From sequence record NZ_KX832927.1: a stretch of 64,000 bases of DNA. One strand, written 5' to 3'. Positions 12,001-21,000 of the stretch are shown here, one piece after another. How positions within the stretch are numbered: the first letter of the stretch is position 1; every line of letters starts with the position of its first letter. A program made the position numbers. The stretch is from a plasmid.

Positions 12001-15000
12001 CAGGCCGTTCTGGCCACGGGAATCACCAAGCGTGTGACGGCTCATACCTTTCGGCATGCCTTTGCGACAGAGTTATTGAGATCGGGGAGCGATATCAGGA
12101 CGGTCCAGGAAATTCTTGGGCATAGCGACATTCGAACGACAGAAATCTACACGCATGTCATTGGCGATCGACGTGCTGGAACCGTCAGCCCTTTTGATCG
12201 TTTGCCAAGTTCTTGATGGGGCGTTGCTTACCCGTTTAAGGGGCGTAAAGCCTGGAATTGGGAGTGCGGCGAATGTCCGCTTTTGTTTATGAGCTGATTT
12301 CGAGGTATTTGACGACCAGCGATGATCGTTTAAGATGAAGTTGCGGTACAGGGAGAGGTCCCGATGGCCGCGACCGGCGATGAGGGGGCGTGCCATTAAT
12401 GGCTTACCCCCGAATCCCTCTCTTGCAGCAGCTCCCTCAAGAAACTCGCCCGCCTGGTGGCATTGCTTACCGATTTTACGATGGACGCAAAATCACTAGC
12501 CTGCCCGACAATATGTATCTCTGCCTCGGCACGGGTAATCGCCGTGTAAAGCCACGCACGGTCTGAGATACGCCCCGTCTGGACTGCCACGATGATTCTC
12601 GGGAACTGGCTCCCTTGAGCCTTGTGGAGCGTGATTCCGTAGCCAAGCTCCATGCAATCGAAGACTTCATCCGTAATTGAAATGGCTTCGCCGGTATCCA
12701 GCGTCACGACACCAAATGTTTCCTGGCCGTCCTTGGTGTCGCGCTCTGTTGAGGATAATACGCCAAGAGACCCATTCTGAATGCCGATGTTGTACTTGTT
12801 CCTGGTGAAGAGGATCGGGTCGCCCACTCTGATATCGAGGAAGAATTCATCGCCATGCAGTCTAAACTGCAAGCACTCCCCATCGGGATTGATCAGCTTT
12901 TGGCACTCACGGTTCACCTCGCCAACTAGAGCCTTGGTGGCTCCGATGATCTGAGTGTTATAGGGTGACTCCGCATACAAGGATTTGCACTTATCGACCA
13001 TCTTCTGCGGAGGCGTCTCGTGGAACGTGATTGCGCCAACCGATAACGCAGGAGGCACCTCACCCCGATTGATGGTGGCCGAGTATTCCGGGATGCCCGT
13101 TGAGTCTTCCTGGCGTTTGACGATGTTCAACTCAACCGTAGCGATTGCACCGGACTCAACGATGTCTGAGAGGACTTTGCCGCAGCCGATGGCTGGTAGC
13201 TGGTTCGGATCGCCGGTCAGGATGATGCGTACCGAAGGATCGAGGTGCGTAACAATCCGATACATGGTCGGCAGGTCGGTCATACTGGCTTCGTCGATGA
13301 CCAGGAGATGCTGCGCCTGATCCAGTGACGGCGAGATCGGCTCTTCCCGCAACAGGCGAGCAATTGTCATGGTGAAGAATCCGATGCTCTCGTGCAGTCG
13401 CATAGCAGCTCGCCCCGACAGAGCGACGGCATGAACCTGATAGCCTAGTGCGGCATAGGCTTTGAGCACGGCACGAAGGACCGTGGTTTTACCCGTACCG
13501 GCACCACCCGTAATGCAGGACACCGCATTGGTAAGGCTCAACTCGACCGCTTGGACCTGCTGCTCGGTCAGGTCGTAGGGCAACTCCTGAACGGCCTCGG
13601 TGAGCGCCTTGAAGACGGATTCATCTTCATTCTTGATGGCGGCCAGGGCCTTGAGCCGCTTCGCAACGACCGACTCCATCATGATTTGGGCGGTAGGGTG
13701 GTAGGTGCCGGTCTCTGGCCTGAGAATGAACTGGCCGTTGCGATAACCGCTGGCGAACGCCTCTGCGACCAGAGCTTTATCGCCCAGAAGCTTGGTCACC
13801 TCGGGCCTGAGCGCCGGATGGGAGGCGTAGGTGTGCCCCTTTTCTACCTCTTTTCGTATCGCGCTTTCTAACGCAGCTGCGAGCCGCACCGGTGCCGATT
13901 TATCCATGCCCATTTTTTCAGCAATCGCATCGATATCGGGAAAAGGCATTCCGAATCCGAGCAATGCGTAGGGATTGGTCTTGAGTACCTCAACGGTTCG
14001 ATTATCGTGGTACTTTAGAATGCGTTGCTGGATGCTCAGCGGCACTCCCAGAGAAGCCAGCCAATTCGCATGCGCAAGGTTTTTGTACTTGGCGTAGCCG
14101 TTGTATAGCGCGGTTACTGAAACCTCGCTAAGAACCTCCCTGAGACGGCCTCTGTGCTCGGAGGTATTGGATTGGAGCATGGGGTGCAGGTCACTGCCAA
14201 AAACGTTCCAGAGGGCGCGTGCTTTGGCCTCACCGATACCGGTGAACTCCTTTTCATTGGCAATGAAACGGATCAGCGCCTCGCCCGTTTCCGGCAGCGT
14301 GCACTCCATCTCAGCTGGGGCGTCATACAAATGTTGCTGAAGCTTATAATCGCCTGCCTGAACGGTCTCCAGCGTCCTTACGCCACGCACTCGCCATTGC
14401 TGACCAACGGACGGCTTGATAGGCAGGGACTGGTTTTCGCATCGGATGCTGACGATGTATTTGCCCGAGTTGATCTTGTAACTGTCAGTCTTGAGGGGAA
14501 CGCCCGTGAAGATCGTGTATTTATAGCCGTTATGCTGGCAGCTGGTGACACGGAAATACTCTTCATGCATCGGGCGCTACTCCGAACTCTGTGAGGACTT
14601 CGGACAGTTCACCGTAACGTTTTAGCTTGGCTTCGAGGGTTGCCACCCGGGCCTTTAGTTCAATGTTTTCCTGCTCCAGCACTGAGAGCCTTCTCGATTC
14701 CATGGCTCTTTTGTTAACGCTGGGATCATAGCGTTTGGGTTCTGATCGCTGGGCCTTGGCGGTTTCGGTCAGTTCTGGCAGAACACCCCGATAACGCAGG
14801 TTCTGCTCCAGATTCTCCAATGCCGTTTTGATGGCCGGATTCTGGCGCAACGCGCTCTTTCCGATGCCTATGGCTTTGGCCACTTCGCCACGGTTTAACT
14901 GGCCCCGATGGAGGATCTGCTTAAAATCGTCATCCGTTTGGGTGGCCACCCAGCTCTGGAAGGCACTCAGGTTCTGACGTGCTCTTTCCTGACCATTACT

Positions 15001-18000: not shown

Positions 18001-21000
18001 ACTGCTAACCAGAAAGGCCTCAAACTCTTCCGTGGACACCTTGTGACCACCCGGATGGCCCTTGAACATCGTGGCCACGTCAACGGCGTACGGGGCTTTA
18101 GCGTTCAGATAGTTAAAGAAGTGTCTTAAGCATTTTAATCGCAGATCAATGCCTACGTTTTGCTCCGCAAGCCATTCGGCGGCGTACTGCTGCCATTGCA
18201 GCCAGTTGTGCCCCAGTTCCTTAGTCACCCACCCCAGCGTCAGATCCGTGGTGTAGCCTTTACTCGTCCTTCTTTTTGTCATGATTTACCTTTGCCCAAT
18301 CGTGGATTCTTGCCCGTAAAGTGGCCGTTTGGATCAATGTCTTCAAAACCGTGTTCTGCAAGCGTCTTCCAATCGAAAGATGCGGGGGGCTTTTCCTTAT
18401 CCGATCCCAACTGAAGTTGTTGTGTTGCCTGGGACAGCGCTTCCGAGACTTTCGCGCTGGAGGGCATGGTGTAAGGAACCTGAGACTCCAGGCTTGCGTG
18501 ATGCAGGCACTTTTTGCGAATAAGCGGATCGACTCCGGCATCCGTCAATCGACGGCCATAGTTGTGGCGATGGCCGTGTGGATCTAACCCTACGGTCTTG
18601 TCGGGTTCGAGACCAATTCGTCTTAACCCAGCCGCATAATTTTGGTTGAAGGAATTGTAGGTATAGGGATTGCCCAGATAGCGAGAGTCGAAGCTAACAA
18701 ACGCATAGGGATGATGGCACTCCACCGATGCACGGAAAACCAAATACTGTCGCCACAGCGACATGAATACTTGGGCAAACTCTTGCGGGAAGAAATGCGC
18801 CTCCAGGTAGCCATCCTTGTCATCTAGGGTTTTGGATTTCCAGCCGAGATGTGGGGTTTTTTGCATCTCCTGGCGCGGGATGCGTGCGTATTTTTCTTGA
18901 AGGTACGCCTTGCGGGTTTTTATCCCTTTTCGGGACTTCCAGCCTTCAGGTGCCTTACCTTCTATCTCGTTGTAGATCCTCACGATTGCCCGATCTGGAT
19001 CGGAGGGGTCTTCAAAGACATCGGTGACCCAGAGTAACAGTGCTTCGCTCACCCTCAATCCGGTCGCGTGCATCAGGAGCACGATAAGCTTGTCCCGCAG
19101 CGCAACTCGCGGGTCTTTGGCTCCTCCCAGGCCCTTCATATAGAAGTCTTCAAACTTTCCCGTAGGGAAGGCGATGGCATCGTCATTGGTTTTTGCCAGA
19201 GGTGTTCTGCCCTTGATGCTGCGGGCTCTTTTTACCGTGGTACTAACCGAGGTGTCTTTAATGTGCCCGAGGAAATCATTCTGGTTACGCCTAAACCAAG
19301 CGGCGTACTGAATGCGTTCCTCATGTCGAGTGGCTGTGCGCAAGGTATTGAGAGGCTTGCCCAGACCTTTGTCCGAGAGCCAATTGGTGAAATTCGTCAG
19401 ATTGCTGATGTGTCGATGTATCGTGCCATTACTGGCCGGTATCCAATACAGGCCAGAGGGGTCCAATCCATCTTCACCGATGGTCCCGCTGTAGAGCCGT
19501 CGGACGAAGCCCGCGAACAACGCTTCGGGTTCATCGAACATGCCTTCGTTGGCATCCATGAACTCGATGAGGAGTCTAATCGACTGAATATGGTTGGTGA
19601 TTGTTGAAAATGAGATGCCATTTAGGTGAAGGCTAAGCACATAATCTGTGACCGACCCCAAAACCCCTTGGTCGGTCAGAATGACCGGGATCTCTGTGGT
19701 TACTCCACTGTTATCCTGAACTACCTTGGCTGTAACCTTCGTTGCAAACATCCTTGAATCCTACACAAATTACACATTATTTACTATATATATAGTGCAG
19801 TCTTCAGGAAAAAGAAACCCCCAATTAAGGGGGTTTTTATCAAATTTACACAGTTCTATGTACTATAGAGAACGAAAGGCCCCTTTTTTTATCCACCACC
19901 ACCAGTTGGCGCGCCTGTTTGAGGGTCTATGCTGTTTGTCGCCTCTTTTCGCTTCGCGTCAATATCAATCCCTTCCAACCGCTCCAACGCCCTTTCCTGA
20001 GCATTCTTCCGCGTCCCGTCAATATTGAAGTCATTCCCTGCTCCAGTCAGCGAGTCGAGATTTATTGAGGCCGGATCAGGGAATTTACCGTTCTGCTGTA
20101 ATATCCCAAGCCACTCATCCAAATTAATTTTGCTCCAATCAATTTCGGCAATTTTATCTAGTGGAATCCCTTCACACTGAGGATTTTTGGGGTCTCCAAA
20201 GTTCTGCCCCAATTGAGGGCGAACCTGTTCTTGTATAATACGAGAGAGCGGAGAATTGAAGCAGCAATACGCTTCTCTTTTTTCAATACAAGCGCCCAAC
20301 ACCTTAGATTTACAATAAGAGCCTACATAGGTGCAATTCTTGAGCGCTCTTTTGGCGTTCATAGTGAACTCTTCTTCCTCGCACTTATAAATCATCTGGA
20401 TCATCACCATCGCAACGACATAGACGGTATATATCGTCATGGCAGTGCTAAGCCATGTTGTCGCAGTCTCCATCATTGCTTCGGCAGCTTGTTCAGATGC
20501 TGCGGCAGCCGCCTGCTCTGTTGCTGCATCTTGGCCTGCTGATTTCATGACATCCATCATCACTTCTTTGACTTGCTCTTTGAGCTGGTCAATGAGTTGA
20601 TCAACAAACTGCTCTACAGGCTGGAAGAACGAATCAACAGCACCTGAAACGTTCTCTATATAACTTGTGAACGGTTTTGTGACTTCTGTCCACCCTTGAA
20701 GGGCAGGTTCCCTAAGTACCTGATAAGCACCTTTAAGCGCATTACCATCAGTCAGCCCCATCACTGCGCCATCGAGCTTTGGAACGGCCATTATTAGGTT
20801 CAGATAATCGGCAAGAGATATATTGGTTGGCTTTTCACAGCAATCAGAAACTCCCCCAACAGCTATCTTGCATTCGCCAGCTTCCCCTGCAAAAGCAGAG
20901 CAAATAACGTTTTCATCCCCGGTAGGATTGTCATCCCCATCTTGGCCTGTGCAGCTCATATCCTGCGTCATGAATTGGGCTGCATTGAGCAACGCAGTAG

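What the first reader, a model, noticed from the sequence alone, without database searches (positions are those of the whole stretch)
12396..19751. Five-gene overlapping operon: two tandem tyrosine recombinases (490 and 873 aa), two small proteins and a RecD/TraA-like helicase, inserted downstream of traN
Seen directly in the sequence: five minus-strand genes whose starts and stops overlap by 4-11 nt, so the operon is probably translationally coupled. Genes 1 and 2 each carry the tyrosine-recombinase boxes (Arg-I, H-x-x-R, and box II with Tyr). Gene 2 is unusually large, with a 350-aa C-terminal extension. Gene 5 has the full SF1B RecD/TraA motif set (Walker A, DEASM, GDPNQLPAIG, HKAQGSQF). 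The recombinase pair plus the 222-aa partner match the 'gamma-mobile-trio' (GmtY-GmtZ-GmtX) arrangement annotated in RefSeq from gammaproteobacterial mobile elements. To my knowledge that trio has no defined function, and its coupling to a dedicated helicase and a coiled-coil protein is not a described system. Candidate roles: an autonomous integration/excision-plus-unwinding module (a hitch-hiking integrative element or resolution system), or a DNA-targeting defence or anti-defence system encoded in a variable hotspot next to traN. The promoter region carries a 14-bp perfect palindrome (actatatatatagt, 19783-19796) and TTTACAC repeats, suggesting dedicated regulation.
Basis: partly seen in the sequence, partly recalled or inferred. 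Interest (0 to 1): 0.85.

Follow-up and report, generated by a model that had tools for sequence, protein, structure and literature searches.

The report
GMT transposon island carrying an integron
The five genes are the mobility core of a known kind of jumping island (a Gamma-Mobile-Trio island), about 14.6 kb long, that has inserted an antibiotic-resistance integron into a terminator hairpin of an IncC plasmid; its helicase and small partner protein are conserved companions of the recombinases that I did not find described in the literature I could search.

Summary
Five overlapping minus-strand genes encode GmtY, GmtZ, GmtX, a VPA1267-family protein and a RecD2-like helicase.

Comparison with an empty IncC plasmid shows a ~14.6-kb island (window ~5263-19872). 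It sits in the loop of the terminator hairpin between traN and a convergent gene. Its cargo is an integron (intI, dfrA, ere-like and further cassettes).

Apparently new points:
- The VPA1267+helicase pair follows gmtX in 42 of 48 related species-level loci, including a VPaI-6-like island. It precedes gmtY in four distant trios and also accompanies a non-GMT three-recombinase operon.
- The VPA1267 family is probably a distant relative of Tn554 TnpC (DUF6262).
- This clade targets A-tract/GC-stem terminator hairpins and brings its own replacement terminators.
- The same island sits inverted in the same hairpin in Providencia plasmids. The junction 6-mers fit Tn554/SE-like spacer carry-over.

The helicase most likely assists replicative copy-out, but this is untested. 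Verdict: a new member of a known kind, of moderate interest.

The parts
5254..5261 (.). Left half of the host target hairpin (AAAGGGGC), backbone side of the 286-aa gene
   Evidence: The empty site in pECO-dc1b reads AAAGGGGC-CGAAAG-GCCCCTTT. It folds at -20.4 kcal/mol, z -4.25.
5262..5267 (.). gmtY-distal junction 6-mer (CTTTCG on the + strand, CGAAAG in island orientation), inferred to come from the donor
   Evidence: It is the inverted form of the target spacer and equals the proximal 6-mer of the pPROV161-1 copy.
5268..5430 (-). Distal island end: end core ...ACTATATACTC, TGTGTA/TACACA repeats (5285-5290, 5371-5376), (CACT)n tract, and an inward-facing hairpin terminator (~5310-5343 plus a T-tract)
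   Evidence: This end is conserved in Salinivibrio (L053) and Psychrobacter (L015/L016) islands. The fold is -26.3 kcal/mol, z -3.7.
5693..10886 (-). Integron cassette array (cargo): GNAT 5693-6157, hypothetical 6242-6682, 6786-7292 and 7399-7770, DUF413 7846-8247, DinB 8342-8884, erythromycin-esterase family 9009-10232, DfrA1-like (dfrA46) 10413-10886. A 79-bp attC-like repeat family lies at 6697-6775, 7315-7393 and 7755-7833.
   Evidence: annotation of the identical plasmids.
11146..12216 (+). Integron integrase IntI (cargo; PGAP start corresponds to about 11245)
   Evidence: TIGR02249 402 bits. Also present in the Salinivibrio copy of the island.
12396..14570 (-). RecD2-like SF1B helicase, fifth gene of the core operon
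14563..15006 (-). VPA1267-family protein: N-terminal HTH plus C-terminal leucine-zipper coiled coil; probable distant TnpC (DUF6262) relative
   Evidence: NF040697 194 bits. AlphaFold model pLDDT 83.8. DUF6262 hits.
14996..15664 (-). GmtX
   Evidence: NF040692 228 bits.
15661..18282 (-). GmtZ, the large tyrosine recombinase, with a conserved Cys4 cluster and coiled-coil C-terminal extension
   Evidence: NF047926 989 bits and Pfam Integrase_2. Invariant R253/H457/R460/H485/Y493 and C567/C585/C613/C616.
18279..19751 (-). GmtY tyrosine recombinase
   Evidence: NF040693 529 bits. Invariant R233/H392/R395/H418/Y427.
19752..19872 (-). Proximal island end: TGTGTA x2 (19762-19767, 19771-19776), TATAGT -10-like box within the palindrome 19783-19796, internal terminator 19815-19836, TGTGTA 19847-19852, and end core TTCTCTATAGTAC (ACTATA at 19862-19867)
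   Evidence: The architecture is conserved across the clade.
19873..19878 (.). gmtY-proximal junction 6-mer CGAAAG, the native spacer of the target hairpin
19879..19886 (.). Right half of the host target hairpin (GCCCCTTT), 3 nt before the traN stop codon at 19889

Best explanation
The five genes are the mobility operon at the 5' border of a ~14.6-kb Gamma-Mobile-Trio (GMT) island (window ~5263-19872). A GMT island is a site-specific, replicative (copy-out/paste-in) element driven by tyrosine recombinases.

GmtY and GmtZ, both with intact catalytic sets, carry out strand exchange. GmtX is the DNA-binding third component. The island has inserted into the 6-bp loop of the bidirectional terminator hairpin between traN and a convergent gene on an IncC conjugative plasmid. 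It carries its own inward-facing terminators near both ends and an integron (intI, dfrA, ere-like and other cassettes) as cargo. The plasmid provides cell-to-cell transfer.

The fourth gene (VPA1267 family) is most likely the counterpart of Tn554 TnpC, GInt GinD and SE Srap. Those are dispensable factors that stimulate transposition and, in Tn554, influence orientation. The fifth gene, a RecD2-like 5'-3' helicase always paired with it, most likely unwinds DNA at the exchanged or nicked end so that the circular copy can be made or replicated.

Status of each step:
- Shown by others: the GMT trio is required, a circle forms, and transfer is replicative.
- Shown here from sequence: the island borders, the hairpin target, the conserved end architecture, the conserved linkage of the pair, and junction 6-mers consistent with carry-over.
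- Inferred: the roles of VPA1267 and the helicase, which protein binds which motif, and the carry-over mechanism.
For: Identity as a GMT island:
- Family scores are far above the cut-offs.
- The GMT paper shows that each of GmtY, GmtZ and GmtX is needed for the circle and for insertion, that transfer is copy-and-paste, that the GMT genes sit at the 5' border, and that the insertion sites contain inverted repeats.

Borders:
- Alignment to the empty IncC site is exact.
- The same ends are found in the Salinivibrio costicola chromosome and in Psychrobacter.

Target:
- Sixteen or more proximal flanks all read A-tract plus GC stem, followed by unrelated 6-mers.
- The empty-site hairpin folds at dG -20.4 kcal/mol, z -4.25. 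The island's own terminators are at 19836-19815 and ~5310-5343.

Mobility in nature:
- The same island (99.8% identical) sits in the same hairpin in the opposite orientation in pPROV161-1.
- The window's distal 6-mer (CGAAAG) equals pPROV161-1's proximal 6-mer, which simple inversion does not predict.
- This fits the SE/Tn554 rule quoted in PMC10214605.
- A sibling island with the same core occupies at least 9 sites.

The pair belongs with the core operon:
- 42 of 48 close-clade species loci have gmtX-VPA1267-helicase with overlapping or abutting genes.
- In L013-L017, GmtX is 75-85% identical but the pair only about 30%, at the same position.
- In 4 distant trios the order is VPA1267-helicase-gmtY, the helicase stop overlaps the gmtY start, and the island end lies about 150 bp upstream of VPA1267.
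- Psychrobacter islands of ~7.8 kb hold little beyond the trio, the pair and the ends.
- A VPaI-6-like V. parahaemolyticus island has the pair at the VPA1267/VPA1266 positions.
- Bradyrhizobium pBoOM27 has a non-GMT three-recombinase operon followed by a VPA1267-like protein and a full-length helicase homologue (E 3e-79).
- The helicase ATPase motifs are invariant.

TnpC link:
- 31 of 103 VPA1267-family representatives hit Pfam DUF6262 (best E 5e-7), against at most 7 for any coiled-coil family.
- DUF6262 is the annotation of Tn6188 TnpC.
- TnpC's role is described in PMC3414803 and PMC5385486.
Against: - Many GMT trios lack the pair: 26 of 30 distant loci, the IncHI2 clade, L018 and L029. The paper reports that 14% of islands consist of the trio alone. 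The pair is therefore not essential.
- The pair is exchanged independently of the trio (GmtX 85% versus VPA1267 30%). That is also how a cargo module would behave.
- The end and promoter motifs track the trio, not the VPA1267 type, so no DNA site can yet be assigned to VPA1267.
- The DUF6262 hits are below Pfam's gathering score (best about 28 bits versus 29), and part of the signal may come from the coiled coil.
- No experiment has tested VPA1266 or VPA1267. The published constructs kept them.
- The spacer carry-over rests on one donor/recipient pair of natural copies.
- The tblastn survey used window proteins as queries, so very divergent pairs could have been missed.
Confidence: 0.62

Rival explanations
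1. The trio alone is the mobility machine. VPA1267 plus the helicase is simply the first, vertically inherited cargo module: a two-gene anti-phage, anti-plasmid or anti-defence system, as much GMT cargo is.
For: - About 40% of GMT islands carry defence systems, and many cargo genes are of unknown function.
- The pair is absent from many trios and is swapped independently of them.
- The helicase gives partial matches to PADLOC candidate models (typeIV_RecD 174 bits, PDC-S68, RecD_like).
- The sibling islands carry restriction systems right after the pair.
Against: - There is no PADLOC hit for VPA1267 and no match to a defined two-gene system. The helicase hits are generic SF1B similarity.
- In the upstream arrangement the pair lies between the island end/promoter and gmtY and is translationally coupled to it, which is not where cargo sits.
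- The pair recurs with a different multi-recombinase operon.
- VPA1267 resembles TnpC.
- The pair has no nuclease or other effector domain.
Confidence: 0.2
2. The pair acts after transposition rather than in it. VPA1267 would be a transcriptional regulator of the island, and the helicase would help maintain or replicate the excised circle or the carrier replicon, for example by resolving replication conflicts at the insertion site. Neither would take part in strand exchange or copy-out.
For: - VPA1267 has an HTH plus a dimerising coiled coil, as many regulators do.
- RecD2-type helicases are generally associated with replication-fork progression and repair (my own knowledge, not tested here).
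- The pair is dispensable in many islands.
Against: - The conserved promoter-proximal motifs do not co-vary with the VPA1267 type.
- No replication initiator or origin is evident in the minimal ~7.8-kb Psychrobacter islands, which hold little beyond the trio, the pair and the ends.
- The link to TnpC-like factors points to the recombination step.
Confidence: 0.12
3. The block is a native IncC backbone feature, such as a resolution or partition module in a variable hotspot next to traN, and not an inserted element.
For: It lies between backbone genes of a conjugative plasmid, and tyrosine recombinases often act as resolvases.
Against: - Hundreds of IncC plasmids have the uninterrupted hairpin at this position.
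- The block has precise ends that are shared with chromosomal copies in marine bacteria.
- Its G+C content (53-58%) is higher than that of the flanking backbone.
Confidence: 0.01

Closest known systems
GMT (Gamma-Mobile-Trio) islands, prototype VPaI-6 of Vibrio parahaemolyticus (Mahata et al., bioRxiv 10.1101/2023.03.28.534373)
   Same: The gmtY-gmtZ-gmtX operon sits at the 5' border, with variable cargo downstream. Insertion is between inverted repeats of a naive site. Examples are found on conjugative plasmids. A VPaI-6-like island has the same trio-VPA1267-helicase order.
   Different: The cargo here is an integron with resistance cassettes rather than defence systems or T6SS effectors. The targets in this clade are many different terminator hairpins rather than one cognate sequence. 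The VPA1267-helicase pair, the TnpC link, the replacement terminators and the junction 6-mer behaviour are not discussed in the paper's text.
Tn554 family (TnpA, TnpB, TnpC) of Firmicutes and Actinobacteria
   Same: [quoted passage not shown] Insertion is site-specific, with a 6-bp core whose sequence is carried from the previous site. The helper (TnpC, DUF6262) is dispensable and influences orientation. The VPA1267 family gives consistent sub-threshold DUF6262 hits.
   Different: Sequence homology of GmtY/GmtZ to TnpA/TnpB was not tested, because no Tn554 sequence was available. A tblastn search with GmtZ found no Firmicutes plasmid hits. Tn554 has no GmtX and no helicase, and it uses one preferred att554 site.
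[quoted passage not shown] 2023, PMC10214605)
   Same: Gammaproteobacterial elements that are not self-transmissible, use tyrosine recombinases in a copy-out-like mechanism, leave no empty donor site, and follow a 6-bp 'fingerprint/footprint' rule that the window and pPROV161-1 junctions obey.
   Different: SEs have a four-gene core that includes a catalytically dead Tfp. The window's proteins match the GMT models. SE proteins were not compared directly. The SE paper does not contain the word 'helicase'.
GInts and RIT elements (three tyrosine recombinases, with or without GinD)
   Same: A multi-recombinase operon at one end of an island, and a small TnpC-like fourth protein (GinD). The Bradyrhizobium operon that shares the VPA1267-helicase pair has three recombinase-like genes.
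   Different: The window has two catalytic recombinases plus GmtX, not three recombinases. BLASTP between the GMT proteins and the Bradyrhizobium recombinases found nothing significant.
RecD2 (Deinococcus and Bacillus) and the helicase domains of TraA/TraI relaxases
   Same: SF1B fold, HHH_RecD2 + AAA_30 + SH3_13 + UvrD_C_2 architecture, and all ATPase motifs. The best solved relative is D. radiodurans RecD2 (3E1S, E 9e-30).
   Different: The score is below the RecD2 equivalog cut-off (366 versus 500 bits). There is no relaxase domain. The gene is encoded inside a transposon operon and always follows a VPA1267-family gene.

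Membership tests
GMT island (Gamma-Mobile-Trio system) | Co-occurring, co-oriented GmtY, GmtZ and GmtX genes | tested here: met
   NF040693 529 bits, NF047926 989 bits and NF040692 228 bits, all above the equivalog cut-offs. The genes overlap by 4 nt.
GMT island (Gamma-Mobile-Trio system) | The trio marks the 5' border of an inserted island, with cargo downstream | tested here: met
   The empty-site comparison gives an insert of ~5263-19872. gmtY starts 121 bp from the proximal end, and the cargo (integron) lies downstream.
GMT island (Gamma-Mobile-Trio system) | The naive insertion site contains an inverted repeat that flanks the inserted island | tested here: met
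   The empty site is AAAGGGGC-CGAAAG-GCCCCTTT, and the two arms flank the island in the window.
GMT island (Gamma-Mobile-Trio system) | Circular intermediate and replicative (copy-and-paste) transfer that depends on the trio | not testable with these tools
   Only indirect support: the same island occurs at several sites and orientations with intact ends and intact catalytic residues.
Tn554 family | TnpA-like and TnpB-like tyrosine recombinases (one ordinary, one large), homologous to those of Tn554 | tested here: inconclusive
   The architecture is met (490 aa and 873 aa, both with R-H-R-H-Y). Homology to TnpA/TnpB could not be tested because no Tn554 sequence was available. tblastn with GmtZ found no Firmicutes plasmid hits.
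Tn554 family | TnpC (Pfam DUF6262) helper protein | tested here: inconclusive
   The window protein scores 14 bits on DUF6262. Other VPA1267 types score 27-28 bits against a cut-off of 29. Of 103 family representatives, 31 hit at E<=0.01.
Tn554 family | 6-bp core carried from the previous insertion site | tested here: inconclusive
   The window's distal 6-mer equals pPROV161-1's proximal 6-mer, and the proximal 6-mers equal the target spacer in both copies. This is a single natural donor/recipient pair.
Strand-biased circularizing integrative elements (SE) | intA-tfp-intB-srap four-gene core with a catalytically inactive Tfp | tested here: not met
   The gene order and content differ: there are two catalytic recombinases, GmtX and VPA1267, and no Tfp-like gene. 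SE proteins were not compared directly.
Known anti-phage defence systems (PADLOC-DB 2.0) | All component proteins match the models of one defined system | tested here: not met
   There were no hits for GmtY, GmtZ, GmtX or VPA1267. The helicase matches only generic RecD-type or candidate models.
RecD2 helicase (TIGR01448 equivalog) | Score above the curated cut-off, with full-length architecture | tested here: not met
   366 bits against a cut-off of 500. The architecture and motifs are RecD2-like, so it is RecD2-like but not an equivalog.
Integron (the island's cargo) | IntI integrase with a divergently oriented array of cassettes bounded by attC sites | tested here: met
   TIGR02249 402 bits. 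Eight minus-strand cassette ORFs lie downstream, with a 79-bp repeat family between cassettes. attI and Pc were not mapped.

The most novel reading that the evidence does not exclude
The VPA1267-family protein (TnpC-like) and its RecD2-like helicase form a dedicated 'transposition helicase' module. It would be recruited to the exchanged or nicked island end to drive the replicative copy-out of tyrosine-recombinase transposons. It is shared by GMT islands and by at least one other multi-recombinase element family. This would be the first helicase-assisted tyrosine-recombinase transposition pathway, and it would explain how these elements copy themselves without leaving an empty donor site.
Probability: 0.35. 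Interest if true: 0.7.

Novelty: new member of a known kind. Interest (0 to 1): 0.5.

Why it matters
- **Clinical.** A marine GMT island has moved an integron platform (dfrA, ere-like and other cassettes) onto broad-host-range IncC plasmids found in clinical Providencia. That nests three layers of mobility (cassette, island, plasmid). The island can re-insert into any suitable terminator hairpin.
- **Mechanistic.** How Tn554, SE and GMT elements copy themselves with only tyrosine recombinases is an open question. The GMT authors say the role of each protein is unknown, and the SE authors invoke unidentified host functions. A catalytically conserved helicase and a TnpC-like partner inside the core operon of the prototype VPaI-6 clade give two concrete genes to delete in an assay that already exists.
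- **Practical.** Terminator-loop targeting, with replacement terminators brought by the island, is a tidy 'safe-harbour' strategy. It could help predict insertion sites and define island borders.

Tried and rejected
- **SXT/R391 ICE hotspot.** This was my first guess from the TraN model. I rejected it because the backbone is 100% identical to IncC plasmids.
- **SE membership.** I considered it from memory and rejected it on gene content.
- **Simple in-situ inversion of the island between the hairpin arms**, to explain the opposite orientation in pPROV161-1. It predicts CTAAGA at the left and CTTTCG at the right in backbone orientation. The window has CTTTCG and CGAAAG. The traN-side backbones also differ (98.2% identical).
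- **The 14-bp palindrome as a conserved operator.** Only one half (TATAGT) is conserved, and it looks like a -10 box.
- **orf107 as a sixth gene.** It has no family, is not called by PGAP in identical plasmids, and overlaps the 3' end of intI. The apparent homologues reflect DNA conservation of about 120 bp after the helicase.
- **A conserved DNA element after the helicase.** None is shared across clades.
- **Fold search for VPA1267.** It gave only weak or coiled-coil matches.
- **Sequence search of GmtZ against solved structures.** Nothing was found.
- **Fetching Tn554-family loci through tblastn with GmtZ**, for a profile comparison with TnpC. There were no Firmicutes hits.
- **Profile searches with VPA1267 alignments.** They listed only close or strong family members, so the distant tail could not be inspected.

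Full report
**1. The observation**

They overlap by 4, 4, 11 (8 from the ATG at 15003) and 8 nt.

Curated models identify four of them well above cut-off:
- GmtY: NF040693, 529 bits
- GmtZ: NF047926, 989 bits, matched end to end
- GmtX: NF040692, 228 bits
- VPA1267-family protein: NF040697, 194 bits

The fifth is a RecD2-like SF1B helicase. It scores 366 bits on TIGR01448, below the 500-bit equivalog cut-off, and has Pfam HHH_RecD2, AAA_30, SH3_13 and UvrD_C_2 domains.

I aligned about 72 homologues taken from related loci. The catalytic sets are invariant:
- GmtY: R233/H392/R395/H418/Y427
- GmtZ: R253/H457/R460/H485/Y493, plus a four-cysteine cluster in its C-terminal extension

The helicase ATPase motifs are invariant in 50 GMT-linked helicases of 29-94% identity. 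The palindrome and the TGTGTA/TTTACAC repeats exist as described.

**2. What the element is and where it ends**

The backbone is an IncC conjugative plasmid. Many IncC plasmids match both flanks at 100% identity, with a gap in between.

Alignment to the empty site in E. coli pECO-dc1b (L001) puts the insert at window ~5263-19872, about 14.6 kb. The empty site reads AAAGGGGC-CGAAAG-GCCCCTTT. It lies between the stop codons of traN and a convergent 286-aa gene, and folds as a strong hairpin (-20.4 kcal/mol, z -4.25). It looks like a bidirectional intrinsic terminator.

The same two ends appear in a Salinivibrio costicola chromosomal contig (L053, 93% nt identity). They also appear, more diverged, in Psychrobacter.

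The island therefore contains the five-gene operon plus an integron:
- intI at 11146-12216
- eight cassette ORFs, including a DfrA1-like gene (annotated dfrA46 in identical plasmids) and an erythromycin-esterase-family gene
- a 79-bp attC-like repeat family

The Salinivibrio copy has intI but almost no cassettes. The ~7.8-kb Psychrobacter islands hold little beyond the trio, a divergent VPA1267-helicase pair and the ends.

**3. What is already known**

The trio is not of unknown function. Mahata et al. (bioRxiv 10.1101/2023.03.28.534373) showed the following for GMT islands:
- The prototype is VPaI-6, genes vpa1270-vpa1254.
- The islands are mobile, form a circular intermediate and insert into a cognate site that contains an inverted repeat.
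- They use a copy-and-paste mechanism and can ride conjugative plasmids.
- Each of GmtY, GmtZ and GmtX is required.

The preprint does not contain 'helicase', 'RecD', 'VPA1267', 'integron' or 'Tn554'. No paper in the library contains 'VPA1267'. Their mobility construct replaced vpa1254-vpa1262 and so kept vpa1263-vpa1270.

A V. parahaemolyticus island with the VPaI-6 gene order (L092) has this sequence: trio, VPA1267 (PF28121), RecD2-like helicase, an 88-aa ORF, an immunity gene, and a Pyocin_S DNase. The prototype clade therefore very probably carries the pair, and its requirement has never been tested.

**4. The VPA1267-helicase pair**

*Plasmids.* GmtX homologues occur in 137 plasmid records and VPA1267 homologues in 45. 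Nearly all of the latter abut gmtX. All close helicase homologues abut VPA1267.

*Genome sample.* I scanned GTDB species representatives with a GmtX alignment and obtained 80 loci. tblastn with the window proteins gave these counts:
- Close clade (GmtX at least 50% identical): 42 of 48 loci have gmtX-VPA1267-helicase. Three have VPA1267 remnants and three have nothing.
- Distant clade: of the 30 loci with enough flanking sequence, 4 have the pair and 26 do not.

Three observations argue that the pair belongs with the core and is not ordinary cargo.
- In L013-L017, GmtX is 75-85% identical to the window's, but VPA1267 and the helicase are only about 30% identical. They still sit at the same position with the same tight spacing. 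Two deeply diverged alleles of the pair therefore occupy the same slot.
- In the four distant trios (Cupriavidus, Microvirga and a MAG) the order is VPA1267-helicase-gmtY-gmtZ-gmtX. The helicase stop overlaps the gmtY start (TGATG). The point where two Cupriavidus loci stop being alike, taken as the island end, lies about 150 bp upstream of VPA1267. The pair thus lies between the island's end/promoter and gmtY.
- Bradyrhizobium ottawaense pBoOM27 has an operon of three tyrosine-recombinase-like genes (354, 509 and 786 aa) and a 151-aa gene. None matches the GMT families. The operon is followed by a VPA1267-like protein (NF040697, E 1e-10) and a full-length homologue of the helicase (28% identity over residues 8-721, E 3e-79).

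Queries with divergent VPA1267 types found no other plasmid context.

*The TnpC link.* Several VPA1267 types hit Pfam DUF6262 just under threshold (27-28 bits against 29), over nearly the whole model. Of 103 family representatives from the exhaustive search, 31 hit DUF6262 at E<=0.01 (best 5e-7). No coiled-coil family was hit by more than 7.

DUF6262 is the annotation of TnpC of Tn6188, which Bardaji et al. cite among Tn554-like elements. It also accompanies two tyrosine recombinases in a C. botulinum element whose attB and attP 6-mers differ by one base.

[quoted passage not shown] GInt GinD and SE Srap are also described as TnpC-like. A dispensable, orientation-influencing helper fits the patchy distribution of VPA1267.

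I regard the homology as probable, not proven.

**5. Target and end architecture**

Every junction I could read has the same form: an A-tract, a short GC-rich stem, an unrelated 6-mer, and then the island end TTCTnTATAGTAC. The junctions are the window, pPROV161-1, pCHS4.1-1, Salinivibrio, Marinobacter, two Psychrobacter loci, one MAG, nine sites of a sibling island, and many of the 58%-identity clade. Where the distal side is available, the complementary stem and a T-tract follow it. This clade therefore inserts into the loops of many different terminator-like hairpins. It recognises a form rather than a fixed sequence.

The island carries its own hairpin-plus-T-tract terminators just inside both ends:
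- 19836-19815, the top terminator-like site in the region
- ~5310-5343, -26.3 kcal/mol

These would stop incoming transcription and replace the terminator the island splits.

ACTATA/TATAGT occurs 7 times in the 64-kb window, and 4 of those lie in the roughly 200 bp of island ends. TGTGTA occurs 21 times, and 5 lie in the ends.

Across the clade the conserved layout is: end core, TGTGTA, terminator, a TATAGT box at -10 distance, then TGTGTA twice before gmtY. This layout persists whether VPA1267 is type 1, type 2 or absent. The motifs therefore belong to the trio.

**6. Evidence for Tn554/SE-like spacer behaviour**

In the Providencia plasmid pPROV161-1 the same island (99.8% identical) sits in the same hairpin, but inverted relative to the backbone. 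In island orientation the junctions are:
- window: GGGGC|CTTTCG|island|CGAAAG|GCCCC
- pPROV161-1: GGGGC|CGAAAG|island|TCTTAG|GCCCC

In both copies the gmtY-proximal 6-mer is the native loop of the target. The window's distal 6-mer equals the proximal 6-mer of the pPROV161-1 copy.

Simple inversion between the arms predicts different 6-mers, and the traN-side backbones differ (98.2% identical).

The pattern is what the SE/Tn554 rule predicts: the 6 bp next to the intA-proximal end travel with the circle and are deposited at the distal junction of the new copy (PMC10214605). The window copy therefore plausibly descends from a copy oriented as in pPROV161-1. This is one natural pair, so it is suggestive rather than conclusive.

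**7. How it most likely works**

GmtY and GmtZ exchange strands at the 6-bp crossover. GmtX, reported as StbA-like by Mahata et al., and/or the recombinase N-terminal domains probably bind the TGTGTA arrays. The island is copied out as a circle and inserted into a terminator loop. The IncC plasmid moves it between cells.

VPA1267 probably acts like TnpC. The helicase, a 5'-3' SF1B enzyme, probably unwinds from the exchanged or nicked end, so that replication can release or complete the circular copy. This is the step for which the SE authors invoke unidentified host functions.

The helicase's role is an inference from gene linkage, operon position and motif conservation. The main rival is that the pair is an inherited cargo module such as a defence system. 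PADLOC gives no support for that, but it is not excluded.

**8. Verdict**

The element is a new member of a known kind: a GMT island with integron cargo on an IncC plasmid. I did not find these points in the literature I could search:
- the conserved VPA1267-helicase module and its link to TnpC and to a second recombinase-operon type
- the targeting of terminator loops, with replacement terminators
- the natural evidence for spacer carry-over

They make the open question of replicative tyrosine-recombinase transposition directly testable in an existing system. Interest is moderate.

Noticed in passing
window 24468-25233: An IS1 copy absent from the otherwise identical pECO-dc1b backbone, lying between the EAL-domain gene and the TrbC-family gene. 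There is an 11-bp overlap of the flanking alignments, and the ORF at 24481-24984 matches the IS1 transposase model NF033558.
   Followed up: partly
window ~52700-63100: A Tn10-like region (tet(B), tetR, IS10/ISVsa5, gltS) with low G+C content, 100% identical to many enterobacterial plasmids.
   Followed up: partly
L104 (Providencia rettgeri pCHS4.1-1, NZ_OL908906.1): The same island has hybrid flanks. The distal junction is the traN terminator arm (TCTTAG|GCCCCTTTTTTT). The proximal junction is a different hairpin (AATAAGGGGGC|CTGCTG) on the acaCD/mobI/rep side of the backbone. This implies either a backbone rearrangement through the island or a second IncC target site.
   Followed up: partly
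window 5693-12216; L053 ~13300-15600: The integron looks like a sedentary marine type. It has a homogeneous 79-bp attC-like repeat family, and the 3' end of intI is 99.7% identical to a Marinobacter plasmid. The Salinivibrio copy of the island has intI with almost no cassettes, so the cassette array appears to have grown after the integron joined the island. The integron class was not determined (PRK15417, an integron-integrase equivalog model, scores below its cut-off).
   Followed up: partly
L093-L102 (sewage and other metagenomes; P0136 cluster): A sibling island has an almost identical five-gene core (its VPA1267 protein is 95% identical). It carries an ISL3 transposase plus a Type ISP restriction enzyme, or a Type I R-M system in L096. 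It is listed in 705 blocks of the collection and sits in at least 9 different terminator-like sites, so the element is abundant and active.
   Followed up: partly
L091 (Photobacterium sp. DA100 pDA100) ~12216-12881: A qnrS2-like quinolone-resistance gene lies just downstream of a divergent VPA1267-helicase pair. It may sit inside a GMT-like island in a marine host.
   Followed up: no
L010, L011 (MAGs labelled Bacillota and Fastidiosipila): Short contigs carry an island 90-95% identical to the window's gammaproteobacterial island. This is probably binning contamination rather than a Gram-positive host.
   Followed up: no
window 12073-12396: A 107-aa ORF abuts the helicase stop codon. It has no family hit, has a low-complexity basic composition, overlaps the 3' end of intI, and is not annotated in identical plasmids. 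It is probably not a gene. The first ~120 bp after the helicase are conserved only among the closest islands.
   Followed up: yes
window 15661-16800 (GmtZ residues ~495-873): The C-terminal extension of GmtZ has an invariant C567/C585/C613/C616 cluster (a likely zinc-binding module) followed by a coiled coil. The unrelated 786-aa recombinase-like protein of the Bradyrhizobium operon also has a Cys-rich motif after its catalytic tyrosine. This may be a shared feature of the 'large' recombinases of these elements.
   Followed up: partly
window 30639-36206: An 1855-aa minus-strand ORF in the IncC backbone has no NCBIfam match at E<=1e-5.
   Followed up: no
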